Shown piece after piece: positions 16,885 to 62,461 of a stretch of DNA of 64,000 nt (its first letter is position 1; the number at the start of each line of letters is the position of its first letter). The notes under the pieces were generated by a model. That model saw only the letters and a list, made by a program, of their open reading frames with translations. It searched no databases and was not told where the DNA came from. Made by a program: the position numbers and the translations under genes. Source of the stretch: a virus (lineage: Duplodnaviria; Caudoviricetes); IMG/VR virus record IMGVR_UViG_2690315807_000002, positions 7,479-71,478 of that record, one strand, 5' to 3'.

Positions 16885-17256
16885 ATGGCAGGACCAACTG
16901 GGACGCACAAGAAAGAATTAAAAGTCGCTGAAGCACACTTAGAGACAAGGGAAAGAAGCAAGTCGAAGGCGACTGATGATGTAAATGTAGAGGATGTGGA
17001 GGGGGATGTGGTAGCCGAGTTAACCCAACAACTTACTATGTTCGGACAGTTCATTTATAACGCTCAGGAAAAAGATACCATCCTGATTGTCGAGAACTTG
17101 GGTTATGGCGATATTTACGTAAGTGACAAGCATAATCCTCGAGTAGGCAATGAAGATCAACGTCTAATTTTCAAGGAGCAAAAGGCATTCAAAGCTGGAA
17201 AGCTGTTTATGATTTCGGCAAGCTATCCCATAGTATCCGTTATTGAGATCAAGTAA
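16885..17256 (+). CDS. Hypothetical protein
   Basis: GAGGAG RBS, clean ORF ahead of the tail module. Confidence 0.65.
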   Translation: MAGPTGTHKKELKVAEAHLETRERSKSKATDDVNVEDVEGDVVAELTQQLTMFGQFIYNAQEKDTILIVENLGYGDIYVSDKHNPRVGNEDQRLIFKEQKAFKAGKLFMISASYPIVSVIEIK

Positions 17257-17424
17257 AAAGAGTATAGGGCCAGTCTACTTCAATCATGGGTTATTACAGA
17301 TGCGAGGGAGAGCATCCCCGGCTGATGTTGATATTGTTGGACACCTCAATACGCAGGGCTGTTAGAAATGTTCCCATTTCAGCTTATATTGGTATACGAA
17401 GCATTCATAAGAGGTTGTGATGTA

Positions 17425-17865
17425 ATGGGAGAATCCACATCTCCAATGTTTACACCTATATTCACACCACGCTTCGTCAAGACCCTTAAATCTTGCAATG
17501 CTAGGACTGCCGGCTAACGATTCTCCAGAAAATTTAGCTACCTAAATTCAGAAGAGAAAGAAGCCACAAGACTTAGTCAGCACAACTTGCCCTTGATAAT
17601 ATTTTATAAAAATCCTGGAGCAAGAGGCGAGAATTACCTTGAGTATAGATTCATCGTAGACTTCGATATCTATACGAAGGATGATGTGGGATTGACTGTA
17701 AACATCGCTGACCGATTTGCCAGATTTTCGACGACCAGTACCTTGGTATGCCGAAGGGTAGTGTGTTTAATAGGGAGTACGTCACAAGTTCTGAAGACGA
17801 TACTGACTGGAAACACCTACAAGTATTTCACCCAAATAGTTTTCGCTATTGGGATAGACGAATAA
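17425..17865 (+). pseudogene. Frameshifted gene at the tail terminator/completion position
   Basis: A protein of about 145 aa can be stitched across frames (YTYIHTTLRQDP/AMLGLPANDSPENLAT*IQKRKKPQDL/HNLPLIIFY...DFDIY...NIADR/QIFDDQYLG.../NTYKYFTQIVFAIG); lies directly upstream of the tail tube gene. Confidence 0.6.
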
Positions 17866-17879
17866 AGGAGGTTTTTTGA

Positions 17880-18935
17880 ATGAAAGTTACTAAAAACAAA
17901 AAAATGCTGATTAAAGGTGCAGGTAAATTCATGGCGAAAATCCCGAACTGTGACGACCTCGTTACAATCGGTACGCTAAATAACATGCGTCTAGACATTC
18001 AATTGGATATGCAGGACATCGAGGCTGGCGATTCTAGCGTCGCTCTGGACACTTTGCTGCGTAAGAAGACAATCGACATTACCGCAGAAGCGGCTAAGTT
18101 CGATCTCAACCTTGTTAGGTTGGTACTTGGCTCAAAACTGCGCGAAGGTGTCTCAGGTTCTGCTTACAGTATGGTTACTGAGACTTTCGTAGTTCCTTCT
18201 GCATCTCCATATCAAGCAGAACTGACTCAAGTATCTATCGCTTCTCCTGCACCTAAGTCCTTTGAGGGTGCAGTGGGCGGTACAGACCTGAGTACAGACG
18301 TGACGATATCCGGTCAGAACGTAGTGTTCGACATGGCACTGGCAGGCAAGACAGTTGTCATCGTCTACGCTGTGGCTCTAACGGGTATTACTCCAGACCC
18401 TGATGGCTTTGTATGGGTTCTGGAAGAGAAGCACAACGTTAAACAAAATGGTTCTGAATTCACTACTGATCTTGTTTATGGTGCTTCGCTCAATACAGAC
18501 CCTCAGATATCCGTCCGTACCCTGCAAGGTAACGTCCTTCTGAAAAAAACGGTCAATCCTAATCCTACGGAAGACCAATATGTAATTAGTGGCGGCACGC
18601 TGAAGTTCAACTCGGCTATGAAAGATGTAGACATTTATGTTAACTACAAGCGTAACGAAGTTGTCGATATCCTCGATATCACAACCAAGGACATGCCGTT
18701 GACAGTTCACGTTGTTCATGACGGACAATTCGAACAGAAAGATGGTACGATTCAAGGTTATCAAACTGAGCTGTACCAATGCCGTGTGAAGTCCAACTTC
18801 ACTCTCGACGCACAACGTCAACAAGCTTCCACACATAGTGTAACTCTAACTGTAATCGACCCTGAACGCTTTGACGGTAAGCTTGGTTCTATCAAGCGTT
18901 ACGAGGCAGGTTCAGCCCAATCGGTAGATTGCTAA
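17880..18935 (+). CDS. Major tail (tube) protein with inserted Ig-like domains
   Basis: Position before the chaperone and tape measure genes; siphophage tube-like N- and C-terminal beta segments flanking an insertion; strong RBS and own terminator. Confidence 0.75.
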   Translation: MKVTKNKKMLIKGAGKFMAKIPNCDDLVTIGTLNNMRLDIQLDMQDIEAGDSSVALDTLLRKKTIDITAEAAKFDLNLVRLVLGSKLREGVSGSAYSMVTETFVVPSASPYQAELTQVSIASPAPKSFEGAVGGTDLSTDVTISGQNVVFDMALAGKTVVIVYAVALTGITPDPDGFVWVLEEKHNVKQNGSEFTTDLVYGASLNTDPQISVRTLQGNVLLKKTVNPNPTEDQYVISGGTLKFNSAMKDVDIYVNYKRNEVVDILDITTKDMPLTVHVVHDGQFEQKDGTIQGYQTELYQCRVKSNFTLDAQRQQASTHSVTLTVIDPERFDGKLGSIKRYEAGSAQSVDC

Positions 18936-18940
18936 TCATT

Positions 18941-18964
18941 AGACTCCCCTCGGGGAGTCTTTTT
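18941..18964 (+). terminator. Rho-independent terminator
   Basis: AGACTCCCC-tc-GGGGAGTCT plus T run. Confidence 0.75.
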
Positions 18965-19093
18965 ACATACAAAATGTTATAGCCTTGGCTTACTCACTTA
19001 GAATGTCCTATGAGGTGATTACAAGGATTCCCCCACCTTGTCGTCACTTCGATTAACTGATTCTTGGGGGAGAATTTAAAGGGGGATTGTAAA

Positions 19094-19555
19094 GTGAGTG
19101 AACGAGATTTAGTAATTCCAAGAGCAGATAGTACTGTGACCAAAGAGATTGCCAGTCAAGTTGAAGAGCAGACACAAGAGGCGGTAACTGAAAAAGAAAA
19201 GAATCCTTTGACACAAGAGGAAGCAGAAGTGTGTGAGAAAGTATTCTTTGAAGAGGACGATAAGGTTCGTTTACGTGACGGCAAAACTTACAATATTCCA
19301 CCATTAGGTCTAATGGATGCTCGAAAGCTAATGAATAAACTTAACACGATTGATTCTGGTGTAATCATCGCTAACCTTATCCCTGAAGACGGGGATGATA
19401 GATTTGACGAACTGCTTGATGTGCTACTAATGGCATTTAAACCGTACTACAACCACATGACGGTCGAACATCTTGGAAATTACGTTGATTTGGAGACGGC
19501 TAAGAAAATTATCGACTGCATGATTGGTCTCAACGGGCTAAAAAAGTCCATGTAA
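19094..19555 (+). CDS. Tail assembly chaperone (gpG-like)
   Basis: Between tube and tape measure; ends in slippery A AAA AAG. Confidence 0.75.
   Translation: MSERDLVIPRADSTVTKEIASQVEEQTQEAVTEKEKNPLTQEEAEVCEKVFFEEDDKVRLRDGKTYNIPPLGLMDARKLMNKLNTIDSGVIIANLIPEDGDDRFDELLDVLLMAFKPYYNHMTVEHLGNYVDLETAKKIIDCMIGLNGLKKSM
19540..19546 (+). promoter_or_regulatory. Programmed -1 ribosomal frameshift site
   Basis: A AAA AAG in correct phase; the -1 frame is open into the 19588-19890 ORF. Confidence 0.8.
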
Positions 19556-60969: not shown

Positions 60970-60970
60970 G

Positions 60971-61312
60971 ATGATGAAGTTTGTAAAGAATGCTTTCTGG
61001 AACGACAATGACGGGTTCTCTGCAAAGGACTTCTTGATGGTTCTGTTCAGTGGACTGTTCGCTCTCTTTCTACTCATTGCATTCTTTGCGCCATTCTTCG
61101 GGGTGGCGGTGAGCGCAGTATCGGTCGGAGCGATTAATAGCTTGAGTACAGTGGTCATGACTATCGTGGGCGGGATATTTGCCGTACAGACTGTAAAAGA
61201 GCTCAAAACCACCAATTCAGAAACTCCCTTTACAGTGCCTGAGCATTCTCTAGTAGAAAGTGTCCTTACTGTGGAGGGAACTAAAGTAGATAATACACCG
61301 AAAATTCAATAG
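60971..61312 (+). CDS. Holin-like two-TM protein
   Basis: Two hydrophobic segments; upstream of the amidase. Confidence 0.6.
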   Translation: MMKFVKNAFWNDNDGFSAKDFLMVLFSGLFALFLLIAFFAPFFGVAVSAVSVGAINSLSTVVMTIVGGIFAVQTVKELKTTNSETPFTVPEHSLVESVLTVEGTKVDNTPKIQ

Positions 61313-61317
61313 AAAGG

Positions 61318-62106
61318 TTGAAACAGATGACTTTTAAAATGAAATACACTATCAAGCAACGATATCTGCCTAACAATACCAAGAGACGTTCCGGTATCAA
61401 GAATCAAGGAATTAGCTTTATCGTGGCACACGATACAGGTAACGATGGAAGTACAGCGGCAGGTAATGTGAACTACTACATGAATTCCGCTAATGTCCAA
61501 AGTGCATCGGCGCATACCTTTATCGATGATAAAGTAATCATTGAGTGTGTGCCCCTCACAGAGAAGGCTTGGCATGTCCTTTACAACGTAAAGACTGACA
61601 ATGATCTTTACGGATTCGATTCTAATGATCGTGCCATCGGCGTAGAACTTTGTTACTCCAATAAGAAGGGTAGCATTAATAACACAGAGTCTTACAAGCG
61701 TTACGTTTGGTACATGGCATACCTCTGTAACAAGTTCAAACTGGATCCTCTGAAATGTATCTCAGGACACAACGAACTTGACCCCAATCGTAAGAGCGAC
61801 CCTTACAAGAACGCCTTGAAGATTATGGGCATAAGCAAGACGAAATTTCTGAATGACGTGGTAGCGGAATTTAAGGATTGCACTACGACTCAAGTAAATG
61901 TACCACAAAATACAGTATCGGGGGATGACGAACCAATGAAACTTGATAAATGGGCGGTAGACATGCTCGTGAACGCACTGACTAATTTTAAGGCTAAGGG
62001 CTACTTTACAGACGAAGCTTGGATCACTAAAGCTAAGAACGGGACTCTGACAGCCGCAGAACTAGCGTTTCTGAATACCATTCTGATTGCCAAGGCGGTG
62101 AAGTAA
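61318..62106 (+). CDS. Endolysin, N-acetylmuramoyl-L-alanine amidase (Amidase_2)
   Basis: IVAHDT, SAHTFID, AWH, IGVELC, GHNELDP...KSDP zinc-amidase motifs. Confidence 0.9.
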   Translation: MKQMTFKMKYTIKQRYLPNNTKRRSGIKNQGISFIVAHDTGNDGSTAAGNVNYYMNSANVQSASAHTFIDDKVIIECVPLTEKAWHVLYNVKTDNDLYGFDSNDRAIGVELCYSNKKGSINNTESYKRYVWYMAYLCNKFKLDPLKCISGHNELDPNRKSDPYKNALKIMGISKTKFLNDVVAEFKDCTTTQVNVPQNTVSGDDEPMKLDKWAVDMLVNALTNFKAKGYFTDEAWITKAKNGTLTAAELAFLNTILIAKAVK

Positions 62107-62107
62107 T

Positions 62108-62407
62108 ATGGTTACATTGAATGCAGTACTTACTACAGCCGTAGCCTCAGTTGGCTTGTGGTTGCTTTTGGCGGGCTTAACTGAAGCACTTACAGAAGTA
62201 GTTAAGGCAGTTCTCCCAATCAAGGATAGAGCTACATATGGTGTGTCAATCGTAGTTGGCGTTGGTTTAGCAATCTCATTCGGACTAAATCCATTCGGAC
62301 TGACCGGAATTTCCGCATACACATCTATGGTGGCTGCTGGATTGCTGGCATCACGCGGAGCGAACTACCTGAACGGTTGGTTGAAACGTTTTGGTATTCA
62401 TCTCTAA
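62108..62407 (+). CDS. Holin
   Basis: Three hydrophobic segments; GLLASRGANYL motif. Confidence 0.7.
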   Translation: MVTLNAVLTTAVASVGLWLLLAGLTEALTEVVKAVLPIKDRATYGVSIVVGVGLAISFGLNPFGLTGISAYTSMVAAGLLASRGANYLNGWLKRFGIHL

Positions 62408-62436
62408 GTGTTTACGGACAAAAATATGATCTCATT

Positions 62437-62461
62437 AAAAGTCGCTATTTAGCGGCTTTTT
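62437..62461 (+). terminator. Rho-independent terminator ending the lysis cassette
   Basis: AAAAGTCGCTA-tt-TAGCGGCTTTT. Confidence 0.7.

What the first reader, a model, noticed from the sequence alone, without database searches (positions are those of the whole stretch)
16885..62461. Headless, immobilised phage-tail machine with a giant receptor apparatus (candidate new F-type tailocin-like system)
Seen: about 42 kb of tail genes (tube, G/GT, tape measure, Dit, Tal, some 14 baseplate/fibre genes) have no broken ORF, and the lysis cassette is intact. In contrast, the place where terminase/portal/capsid/neck genes normally sit (just upstream of the tube) holds only one 123-aa ORF and debris, and the recombinase is multiply frameshifted. 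No sheath gene is seen. Known: F-pyocins and monocins are non-contractile tails domesticated as bacteriocins, but with much smaller loci. Inference: selection preserves a capsid-less tail particle released by lysis, with an unusually large multi-adhesin tip.
Basis: partly seen in the sequence, partly recalled or inferred. Interest (0 to 1): 0.88.

Follow-up and report, generated by a model that had tools for sequence, protein, structure and literature searches.

The report
Conserved headless siphophage tail cluster
This is a chromosomal relative of the large Brevibacillus phage Jenst that has lost its head and DNA-packaging genes but keeps about 45 kb of intact tail and lysis genes; many Paenibacillus and Brevibacillus genomes share this layout, so it most likely makes tail-only killing particles.

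Summary
The window is most of a 71-kb provirus record related to the siphophage Jenst (126 kb). In Jenst the order is thymidine kinase, terminase, portal, capsid, connectors, tube. Here only 1.5 kb lies between the kinase and the tube. It holds one connector-region ORF, a 33-aa remnant and a tail-terminator pseudogene with at least 4 frameshifts and a stop. The 42 kb of tail genes, the G/GT slippery site and the lysis genes are intact. The integrase is frameshifted.

The same headless layout occurs in 11 of 16 related virus records and 18 of 20 related species genomes. Most are Paenibacillus and one is Brevibacillus laterosporus. No full-length cognate capsid or portal gene was found anywhere in those 18 genomes. 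In one GTDB genus, 14 of 93 species have the tube and 0 of 93 have the capsid gene.

Purifying selection acted after head loss. A near-identical sister element has 24 indels in 5.5 kb of non-coding DNA and only two in 30 kb of ORFs, both at 3' ends. Its fibre cassette has been swapped wholesale.

I read this as a new family of non-contractile (F-type) tailocin candidates with natural domestication intermediates. Particle production and killing are untested. Earlier scan notes on related DNA mentioned only SLH motifs, not this reading.

The parts
3..551 (+). Phage sigma-like factor (Jenst gp051 homologue). Kept in every headless relative fetched whole except G025.
   Evidence: Sigma70_r2, marginal score
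1695..4899 (+). Family A DNA polymerase in two ORFs (1695-3671 and 4138-4899), split by a group I intron-like insert (3580-4130). Part of a retained replication kit; the helicase and primase lie just upstream of the window.
5935..7342 (+). gp075-like virion protein (gp151-like N-domain plus an HEIGH zincin-like C-domain, 5935-7053) and its small Cys-rich partner gp077 (7124-7342). Conserved beside the sigma gene in the minimal elements.
12323..13276 (+). Second phage sigma factor (gp117 homologue).
15664..16413 (+). Thymidine kinase. It is the last gene before the place where the head module sits in Jenst.
16414..17879 (+). Scar of the head and connector module. It holds AT-rich non-coding DNA, the gp164-like ORF (16885-17256), a 33-aa gp161 remnant (17319-17417) and a tail-terminator (gp160) pseudogene (17427-17865) with at least 4 frameshifts and 1 stop.
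   Evidence: terminator fold
17880..18935 (+). Major tail (tube) protein, assigned by position, with two inserted Ig-like domains.
   Evidence: fold of the core not resolved
19064..19890 (+). Tail assembly chaperones G (19064-19555) and GT (-1 frame open from 19504), with the slippery A_AAA_AAG at 19540.
19955..25228 (+). Tape measure protein, 1757 aa.
25285..26950 (+). Two proteins after the tape measure (206 and 347 aa). The first carries an SLH motif.
26965..30459 (+). 1164-aa tail-tip protein with a Peptidase_M23 domain and a 3D (YuiC-like) cell-wall hydrolase domain.
30537..46075 (+). Baseplate series homologous to Jenst gp152 to gp142: 142, 128, 886 (PKD), 491, 606 (DUF2460), 1352, 360, 279, 409, 171 and 207 aa.
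46125..59640 (+). Distal fibre and receptor-binding cassette: 1108 aa (RCC1-like, Laminin_G_3), 517 aa (RCC1-like) and 2838 aa (Gly-rich ALK/LTK-like, Laminin_G_3, CBM96). It is swapped as a block between near-identical elements.
59697..60552 (-). Tyrosine integrase pseudogene with at least 3 frame changes.
60607..62407 (+). Lysis cassette: a 1-TM coiled-coil protein, a 2-TM holin-like protein, an Amidase_2 endolysin and a small membrane protein.
62923..64000 (+). Host flank: an ArsR-type regulator and an aldo/keto reductase. This marks the right end of the element.
   Evidence: no Jenst homology

Best explanation
The locus is a chromosomally fixed descendant of a Jenst-type temperate siphophage, probably in a Paenibacillus (the host genus is inferred). 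It belongs to a widespread Paenibacillaceae family that has lost terminase, portal, capsid and most connector genes. The family keeps the whole non-contractile tail, its G/GT chaperones, the fibre apparatus, the holin-endolysin cassette and phage sigma factors, all under purifying selection.

The most likely working is that of an F-type tailocin.
- On induction the phage sigma factors switch on the late operon.
- A tail of about 260 nm is built on the 1757-aa tape measure.
- The producer cell lyses.
- The free tails bind related cells through SLH, lectin-like and carbohydrate-binding fibre domains.
- They cut the wall with the M23/3D tip protein and kill by a tape-measure-dependent membrane breach.

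Shown here: homology, head loss, intactness, conservation, and selection after head loss. Inferred: particle assembly, release, binding and killing.
For: (a) Head loss in place. The head genes sit between thymidine kinase and tube in Jenst and in the 5 intact relatives. Here and in 11 of 16 viral-contig relatives and 18 of 20 species genomes they are gone, with ordered debris left behind.

(b) No cognate head genes elsewhere. The capsid query found a full-length match only in the intact Bacillus tequilensis prophage (1 of 20). The portal query gave the same result, and the other hits cover 25-120 aa of the query. In the GTDB genus of G018, 14 of 93 species have the tube at 69% identity or more, and 0 of 93 have the capsid gene.

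(c) An internal clock. The terminator pseudogene has at least 5 disabling lesions in 444 nt, and the integrase has at least 3. The roughly 43.5 kb of tail and lysis ORFs have none.

(d) Selection after head loss.
- G001 shares the window's junctions at about 98% nucleotide identity. Of 26 indels in 3844-23409, 24 are intergenic, 1 is in the pseudogene and 1 lies 15 nt before a stop. The next 16.7 kb of tail genes has one indel, in a stop codon. Fisher p is about 7e-19.
- Omega for this pair is 0.03-0.19 for the comparable tail genes from tube to gp146, with dS 0.02-0.06. Exceptions are the tape measure (0.48) and gp147 (0.33); T is undefined because dS is 0.
- P. peoriae and Paenibacillus sp. 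8b26 carry the element between the same flanking genes, with dS 0.25-0.4. Omega is 0.03-0.35, except the short tape measure (0.44) and a 96-aa T-region ORF (0.69).

(e) Specificity turnover. Between G000 and G001 the fibre region, about 45.8-60.6 kb, is replaced wholesale. The window's version matches that of G004.

(f) Tail modules are uninterrupted in 10 of 11 headless virus records and in all 9 chromosomal regions fetched whole.

(g) The tail is non-contractile. Jenst is a siphovirus (PMC4909266, passages), a G/GT slippery site is present, and there is no sheath hit.
Against: - No particle, transcript or killing data exist. No RNA run holding the stretch was listed.
- The tail-terminator gene is a pseudogene here, whereas monocin is capped by a terminator (PMC11830787, passages). 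The window's tails may therefore be uncapped or irregular. The terminator is also missing from the Brevibacillus-type and polymyxa-group elements, which do show purifying selection.
- Some family members are decaying. G011 has lost gp150 to gp139. G015 and G027 lack the endolysin, and no Jenst-type endolysin homologue was found in the polymyxa group.
- Intact phages (Jenst, L007) nest among headless elements in the tail-protein tree. Much of the divergence between distant elements may therefore have accumulated in working phages.
- Only the 71-kb record of the window's own genome is held, so a head module elsewhere in that genome cannot be excluded directly.
- The tube fold was not resolved (pLDDT 58).
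Confidence: 0.7

Rival explanations
1. It is an ordinary defective prophage on its way to loss. The tail is intact only because decay has not reached it yet, and no function is selected.
For: Large parts of the early region are deleted relative to Jenst (UvsX, RNR, ligase, RecB, RuvC and others). The integrase and terminator are pseudogenes. Some relatives have lost distal tail genes or the endolysin.
Against: Decay is strongly non-random. All 29 chromosomal or provirus relatives lost the head and none lost the tail while keeping the head. Indels avoid ORFs. Omega is mostly 0.03-0.35 at a shared site in two species. The fibre cassette has been exchanged.
Confidence: 0.1
2. The tail cluster is kept for its dealings with infecting Jenst-type phages rather than as a bacteriocin. 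It could be a reservoir of tail and fibre modules for recombination. It could be a source of tails that join, or compete for, the heads of a superinfecting relative. In either role it acts as a helper-dependent or anti-phage element.
For: Intact phages (L007, Jenst) nest inside headless clades, and the tree needs at least 3 state changes. A TerL remnant in the G003-type elements is 92-95% identical in nucleotides to L007. Replication genes and sigma factors are retained in many elements. The terminator is intact in many relatives.
Against: The connector genes gp163 to gp161 are lost in most elements. The terminator, which forms the head-joining face, is dead here and absent in two clades. The lysis cassette is retained, as expected for self-release. 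No such tail-donor system is known to me (recalled).
Confidence: 0.13
3. The head genes exist but lie outside the record or elsewhere in the same genome, so the element is a complete or PBSX-like phage.
For: The record is a 71-kb piece with a CheckV estimate of 55% complete. Its left end is still phage-like.
Against: In every intact relative the head module lies directly upstream of the tube, a stretch that is contiguous here and holds its debris. The right flank is host DNA. The 18 headless species genomes have no full-length cognate capsid or portal gene anywhere. No unassigned ORF of 250 aa or more remains in the window.
Confidence: 0.03

Closest known systems
Brevibacillus phage Jenst / SecTim467 (Jenstvirus, 126-130 kb siphoviruses)
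   Same: The tail, lysis, replication and sigma genes are homologous and collinear at 32-82% amino-acid identity. The series of large baseplate and fibre genes is the same.
   Different: Jenst has terminase, portal, capsid and five connector-region genes, about 55 kb more early genes, tRNAs, partition and replication-initiation genes and terminal repeats. Its early arm is inverted relative to the window.
Monocin (F-type tailocin of Listeria monocytogenes)
   Same: It is a Gram-positive, chromosomal, head-less, non-contractile tail cluster with regulators, tube, tape measure, baseplate, receptor-binding fibres and a holin-lysin cassette (PMC11830787, passages).
   Different: Monocin has 18 genes in 11.6 kb, a 622-aa tape measure and a terminator cap, and derives from a TP901-1-like tail. 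Here the tail and lysis genes span about 45 kb, the tape measure is 1757 aa, the terminator is dead, and phage replication genes and sigma factors are retained. The only homology test was a fold search with the terminator model, which placed the monocin cap at rank 33. Sizes come from the efagin preprint legend.
F-type pyocins of Pseudomonas aeruginosa
   Same: They show the same principle: a domesticated flexible tail, released by lysis, with fibre-region diversity that sets the killing spectrum (recalled; PMC11830787 introduction passages).
   Different: They are lambda-like tails in a Gram-negative host. The combined R and F cluster is 30.3 kb. They have no phage replisome or sigma genes (recalled).
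Efagins of Enterococcus faecalis (bioRxiv 10.64898/2025.12.13.693970)
   Same: They are chromosomal, head-less, non-contractile tail-like particles that target Gram-positive cell-wall carbohydrates (passages).
   Different: The locus is 14.6 kb and is fixed in one species. The authors note a paucity of evolutionary intermediates. The present family offers a graded series, and an infectious relative is in culture.
PBSX-like tailocin of Brevibacillus laterosporus (Babar et al. 2022, PMC9406221)
   Same: It is a phage-derived killing particle in the same bacterial family (passages).
   Different: It is a contractile, sheath-bearing (XkdK) PBSX-type locus at another place. It is unrelated to the Jenst-type tail.

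Membership tests
F-type (non-contractile) phage tail-like bacteriocin | The cluster encodes a flexible-tail set (tube, G/GT chaperones, tape measure, tip and baseplate, fibres) and no sheath. | tested here: met
   Collinear with siphovirus Jenst. Slippery site present. Tape measure identified by PHROG. No sheath family hit. The tube fold itself was not resolved.
F-type (non-contractile) phage tail-like bacteriocin | No terminase, portal or capsid genes in the locus. | tested here: met
   No hit in the 71-kb record with the Jenst proteins. The same holds in 11 virus records and 18 species genomes.
F-type (non-contractile) phage tail-like bacteriocin | No cognate head genes elsewhere in the producer's genome. 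| not testable with these tools
   Only the 71-kb record of the window's own genome is held. The feature is met in the 18 headless relatives' whole genomes.
F-type (non-contractile) phage tail-like bacteriocin | Own lysis cassette for release. | tested here: met
   Holin-like membrane proteins and an Amidase_2 endolysin are intact.
F-type (non-contractile) phage tail-like bacteriocin | Fixed in the chromosome and kept by selection across strains or species. | tested here: met
   Integrase pseudogene. Host flank. Shared flanks and low omega in two species. Indels are excluded from ORFs in G000 versus G001.
F-type (non-contractile) phage tail-like bacteriocin | Proximal terminator cap, as in monocin FtbF. 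| tested here: not met
   The gp160 family has the gpU-type terminator fold. The window's copy has at least 4 frameshifts and 1 stop. This is a component of monocin, not part of the definition of the class.
F-type (non-contractile) phage tail-like bacteriocin | Particles are produced and kill related bacteria without DNA transfer. | not testable with these tools
   Needs induction, TEM and killing assays.
Jenstvirus-type phage lineage (by descent) | Collinear homology over the structural and replication modules. | tested here: met
Jenstvirus-type phage (as a viable virus) | A complete virion gene set including head and packaging genes. | tested here: not met
PBSX-like defective phage / gene transfer agent | Makes small heads that package DNA (capsid, portal and terminase present). 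| tested here: not met
   No head genes, and no sheath either.

The most novel reading that the evidence does not exclude
Jenst-type phages have been turned into tail-only weapons repeatedly and along a predictable path in Paenibacillaceae, and all the stages are still alive today.
- Stage 0: the infectious phage.
- Stage 1: head-less elements of 65-80 kb that still carry a working phage replisome and sigma factors. These would amplify their own locus on induction, which no described tailocin does.
- Stage 2: minimal clusters of about 35-45 kb from tube to the last sigma or early gene.
- Stage 3: a P. polymyxa-group form of about 34 kb whose tape measure has shrunk from about 1750 to 256-286 aa and which lacks a terminator.

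The window would be a stage-1 member, a self-replicating giant F-type tailocin whose fibre cassette is exchanged between strains.
Probability: 0.3. Interest if true: 0.88.

Novelty: new variant of a known kind. Interest (0 to 1): 0.72.

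Why it matters
Few F-type tailocins are described. Those I met in my reading are the pyocins, monocin, rhizoviticin and the efagins, and their loci are small.

- **Origins.** How a phage becomes a tailocin is argued largely without intermediates; the efagin preprint says so explicitly. This family would supply an infectious ancestor-like phage already in culture (Jenst) and dozens of natural intermediates. 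It would also supply independent erosion paths of the head module, and a derived clade with a six-fold shorter tape measure.
- **Testable questions.** One can ask which parts of a siphophage tail are needed for killing rather than infection. Tail length, the terminator and the replisome can each be examined.
- **Practical side.** Paenibacillus polymyxa-group strains and Brevibacillus laterosporus are used as plant and insect biocontrol agents. An unrecognised strain-specific killing particle would bear on strain compatibility and on culture crashes.

My searches of the held paper library found no description of this element.

Tried and rejected
- **Megablast.** Window 16000-36000 against the phage collection found nothing. 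Protein-level search was needed.
- **Pfam.** It gave no family for the tube, G, T, gp164-like or gp160-like proteins. It gave only weak or no hits for the Jenst-type TerL, portal and capsid. Generic HMM searches for head genes would therefore be insensitive, and I used cognate proteins instead.
- **Tube structure.** The AlphaFold model built on 17 close homologues was poor (mean pLDDT 58). The wide fold search matched only the two Ig-like inserts. Tube-like rows were weak: YSD1 major tail protein at Z 4.8 with rmsd 10.8, and 2guj at Z 4.8. A profile search of PDB sequences found nothing. Fold-level identification of the tube is inconclusive.
- **Other PDB sequence searches.** The 606-aa baseplate protein found nothing. 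The 886-aa protein matched only PKD-like pieces.
- **RNA features.** Rfam at gathering threshold found nothing in the window. ARAGORN found no tRNA.
- **Expression.** No RNA holder was listed by the look-up of sequencing runs.
- **Chromosomal site.** The idea that all elements share one site is rejected. Flanks are shared only within some pairs: G028/G035 on both sides, G004/G007 on the left, G016/G024 on the left.
- **Single clean head deletion.** Rejected. L070 keeps gp163 and gp162 but lacks gp161. L064 and L071 keep gp161 but lack gp163 and gp162. The G003-type elements keep TerL and portal scraps, and L064 keeps gp167 and capsid scraps.
- **Giant fibre apparatus as a novelty of the headless form.** Rejected. 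Jenst has the same gene series.
- **Not seen or not used.** Supplementary files of papers were not available. Jenst virion proteomics may be in them and could bear on the labels 'virion structural protein'. I did not use complex prediction, the search of protein representatives, the search for homologous proteins or the ESM Atlas.

Full report
WHAT THE WINDOW IS. The window is bases 7479-71478 of a 71,478-bp IMG/VR record classed as a provirus, with a CheckV estimate of 55% complete. Nucleotide search against phage genomes found nothing. At protein level the nearest known phages are Brevibacillus phages Jenst and SecTim467, 126-130 kb.

I took the Jenst annotation and ran about 125 of its proteins against the whole record. 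The window divides as follows:
- 1-16413: a thinned early region. It holds a sigma factor, a family A DNA polymerase, the virion protein gp075, a transglycosylase, a second sigma factor and thymidine kinase.
- 17880-62407: a complete collinear late region from Jenst gp159 to gp134.
- 62923 onward: host genes, an ArsR regulator and an aldo/keto reductase.
The 7.5 kb of the record upstream of the window holds an HTH protein, a helicase loader, a helicase and a primase. It holds no structural gene.

THE OBSERVATION. In Jenst, thymidine kinase is followed by TerL, gp169, portal, gp167, gp166, the major head protein, gp164 to gp160 and then the tube, over 9.5 kb. In the window the kinase ends at 16413 and the tube starts at 17880.

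TerL, gp169, portal, gp167, gp166, head protein, gp163 and gp162 have no hit anywhere in the record. I compared the window in nucleotides with a metagenomic relative that has the full head module (L007). The window keeps only L007's kinase, the stretch around gp164, and the stretch from the end of gp161 onward. Two blocks, of 6.6 kb and 1.6 kb, are missing.

The gene just before the tube (gp160) belongs to a family whose model has the lambda gpU tail-terminator fold. The model has pLDDT 78. The top Foldseek hits are gpU at E 7e-6 and TM 0.54-0.59; T5 p142, SPP1 gp17, the pyocin R2 collar and the monocin cap also appear. The window's copy needs at least four frame changes and reads through one stop.

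The integrase is broken into at least four pieces in different frames.

By contrast all 21 ORFs from tube to the 2838-aa fibre are open, and so are the lysis genes. For the 18 ORFs from tube to gp142 the lengths match those of relatives. The three distal fibre ORFs are a variable cassette and match only record G004. The chaperone pair keeps a canonical -1 slippery heptamer in the right phase.

No sheath family was detected. Jenst has a 286-nm non-contractile tail (PMC4909266, Table 2 passage).

RELATIVES. A scan of IMG/VR with the tube protein gave 16 loci.
- Five have the whole head module: Jenst itself, L007 and three records of 124-126 kb.
- Eleven have none of TerL, portal or head protein next to the tube.
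I fetched those eleven records whole. None holds a portal, head protein, gp167, gp166, gp163 or gp162 homologue. TerL is present only as scraps of 20-30 aa in four of them.

A scan of one genome per species gave 20 loci: 17 named Paenibacillus, one 'Bacillus sp. FJAT-27264', one Brevibacillus laterosporus, Bacillus chungangensis and Bacillus tequilensis. Only the B. tequilensis locus has the head module. The B. chungangensis locus is rearranged and I left it unclassed. The other 18 are headless.

I then searched these 20 whole genomes.
- With the L007 head protein: one full-length hit (B. tequilensis, 71%), one 32-aa scrap inside a headless locus, and one weak 27% match.
- With the portal: again only B. 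tequilensis full length. The four other hits cover 25-120 aa of the query.

In the GTDB genus that holds P. amylolyticus and the P. polymyxa group, 14 of 93 species have the tube at 69-90% identity and 0 of 93 have the head protein. The one search hit serves as the positive control for that query.

Two virus records are identical to two of the chromosomal loci. Distinct headless relatives therefore number 27.

A GRADED SERIES.
- Some elements keep the helicase loader, helicase, primase, DNA polymerase and both sigma factors. These are the window, G001, G003-G007, G016, G018, G019 and G021.
- Others are about 35-45 kb from tube to the last sigma or early gene, and hold the tail, lysis genes, sigma gp051, gp075, gp077 and gp080. 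These are G009/G024 and the Brevibacillus-type G010, G015 and G027.
- The polymyxa-group loci examined (L073, L074, L076, L077, L080) lack most of the tape measure. In G028 and G035, which were fetched whole, it is only 256 and 286 aa. There the terminator is absent (G028) or a 23% remnant (G035), and gp075 is cut to its N-domain.

The early arm stands before, after, or inverted after the late arm in different elements.

The head region is eroded differently in different lineages.
- G003-type elements keep ordered scraps of TerL and portal. One is a 131-nt piece 92-95% identical to L007.
- L064 keeps scraps of gp167 and the head protein together with whole gp161.
- L070 keeps gp163 and gp162 but not gp161.
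These patterns cannot be nested, so the final destruction of the head module happened separately in several lines.

I built a tree of tube plus the two proteins after the tape measure. It has 36 rows, with the B. chungangensis row left out because it lacks two of the genes, and was made with the quick IQ-TREE method. It puts Jenst and L007 among the headless elements and needs at least 3 changes of state. This means either repeated head loss or exchange of tail modules between phages and resident elements.

SELECTION. Three tests bear on the time after head loss.

(i) Inside the window, the terminator became dispensable only once heads were gone. It has collected at least 5 disabling lesions in 444 nt. 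About 43.5 kb of tail and lysis ORFs have none.

(ii) G001 has the same junctions as the window and is about 98% identical up to 40.5 kb. Of 26 indels between 3844 and 23409, 24 lie in 5.5 kb of non-coding DNA. One lies in the terminator pseudogene and one lies 15 nt before the stop of a small gene. The next 16.7 kb has a single indel, in a stop codon. The contrast of coding against non-coding DNA gives Fisher p of about 7e-19. For this pair most tail genes from tube to gp146 have omega 0.03-0.19 at dS 0.02-0.06. The tape measure (0.48) and gp147 (0.33) are higher, and T is undefined because dS is 0.

(iii) P. peoriae and Paenibacillus sp. 8b26 hold the short-tape-measure form between the same host genes: a dicarboxylate symporter and a Vut_1 transporter on one side and a GNAT on the other. 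The element's genes differ by dS 0.25-0.4. Omega is 0.03-0.35, except for the short tape measure (0.44) and a 96-aa T-region ORF (0.69). The flanking host genes show dS 0.4-0.9 with omega mostly 0.03-0.15 and up to 0.27. Small ORFs lying inside other genes gave omega above 1, and I ignored them as spurious.

Against more distant headless elements, omega is 0.02-0.24 wherever it could be computed, but dS is near or past saturation.

SPECIFICITY TURNOVER. Between the near-identical G000 and G001 the region from about 45.8 to 60.6 kb shows no nucleotide similarity. It holds the two RCC1-like proteins, the giant fibre and the integrase remnant. The stretch just before it drops to 87% identity and the lysis cassette to 92%. 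The window's fibre proteins match those of G004 instead, at 76-97% identity and the same lengths. Block exchange of the receptor-binding end on a constant shaft is what one expects of a particle whose target range is under selection.

HOW IT LIKELY WORKS (inference). The two sigma-like factors are the only regulators conserved with the tail in the minimal elements. I take them to drive late transcription.

The 1757-aa tape measure predicts a tail of about 260 nm, using roughly 0.15 nm per residue (recalled). This is in line with Jenst's 286 nm.

The tip region carries SLH motifs, an M23 peptidase plus a YuiC-like 3D domain, and PKD, Laminin_G_3, CBM96 and RCC1-like domains. These are binding and wall-cutting functions.

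Killing by membrane breach through the tape measure is the model discussed for monocin (PMC11830787, passages). It is unproven even there. Release would be by the holin-endolysin set.

The dead terminator means the window's tails are probably uncapped. In lambda, tails made without gpU are of normal length at first and later overgrow (recalled).

WHAT IS KNOWN. I searched the held paper library for:
- Brevibacillus laterosporus with tailocin;
- Jenst and SecTim467;
- Paenibacillus with tailocin;
- F-type, monocin and Gram-positive;
- Paenibacillus, phage tail-like, defective prophage and headless;
- genome mining with Bacillota and Paenibacillaceae;
- P. polymyxa with phage tail.
None found a description of this element.

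The B. laterosporus tailocin of Babar et al. is a contractile PBSX-type locus (PMC9406221, passages). Berg et al. noted that the putative Jenst and SecTim467 capsid proteins had no close match in bacterial genomes (PMC4909266, passage). That agrees with the present result.

Locus sizes quoted for known systems are monocin 11.6 kb, efagin 14.6 kb, diffocin 21.8 kb and the R plus F pyocins 30.3 kb (efagin preprint, legend passage).

Earlier notes of this scan on the same window agree on the dead junction genes, the retained replication kit, the group I intron, the SLH motifs and the gp075 zincin. Notes on look-alike DNA in two other genomes concerned only SLH motifs. One earlier report describes a different, contractile headless cluster in a Paenibacillus-type chromosome.

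VERDICT. The window is a member of a widespread and, as far as my searches show, undescribed family of head-less Jenst-type tail clusters kept by selection. These are best read as giant F-type tailocin candidates. Function at the bench is untested, and this particular copy lacks a terminator.

Scores: confidence in the explanation is 0.7, interest is 0.72, and novelty is a new variant of a known kind.

Noticed in passing
window 3580-4130: A group I intron-like insert splits the DNA polymerase gene into 1695-3671 and 4138-4899. The Rfam Intron_gpI score is 31 bits, below the gathering score of 50, with E 4.7e-6 in an 801-nt search. Relatives G016, G018 and G004 have one uninterrupted ORF of 861-888 aa. 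Jenst has a different, endonuclease-bearing interruption.
   Followed up: partly
window 5935-7342: gp075 has an N-domain like the 128-aa tail protein at 30969-31355 and a C-domain with an HEIGH zincin motif. It is followed by a 72-aa Cys-rich protein. The motif and the partner are conserved in 17 of 17 full-length homologues, Jenst included. The pair stays next to the sigma gene in the minimal elements. In the polymyxa group and in G011 only the N-domain remains and the partner is gone.
   Followed up: partly
G028/G035 and loci L073, L074, L076, L077, L080: The P. polymyxa-group form of the element has a tape measure of only 256-286 aa, against about 1480-1757 aa elsewhere. This predicts a tail of about 40 nm. 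No Jenst-type endolysin homologue was found in these clusters.
   Followed up: partly
21 genomes of the GTDB genus of G018, e.g. G037:C1:4168514-4169047: A 278-292-aa ORF is about 40% identical to the C-terminal half of the tube protein (residues 176-345). It is present once per genome in 21 of 93 species. It may mark a second, more distant tail-derived element.
   Followed up: no
window 45800-60640 versus G001: The whole distal fibre cassette is replaced between two elements that are otherwise about 98% identical. The window's cassette is closest to that of G004.
   Followed up: yes
G011 (L041); G015 and G027: Decayed members of the family. G011 has lost gp150 to gp139. G015 and the B. laterosporus MSSRFCCT15 element lack the endolysin gene.
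   Followed up: partly
L078 (Bacillus chungangensis): The tube homologue (56-58% identity) lies about 8 kb away from its chaperone and tape-measure homologues, in a rearranged locus. I did not class it.
   Followed up: no
window 8161-9052, 11604-12323, 13276-13771, 14052-14724: Long ORF-poor gaps in the early region mark where Jenst genes are missing. Between G000 and G001 these gaps hold most of the indels and show 3.0% mismatches, against 0.6-2.1% in most ORFs (gp174 and gp173 reach 3.0% and 2.5%).
   Followed up: partly
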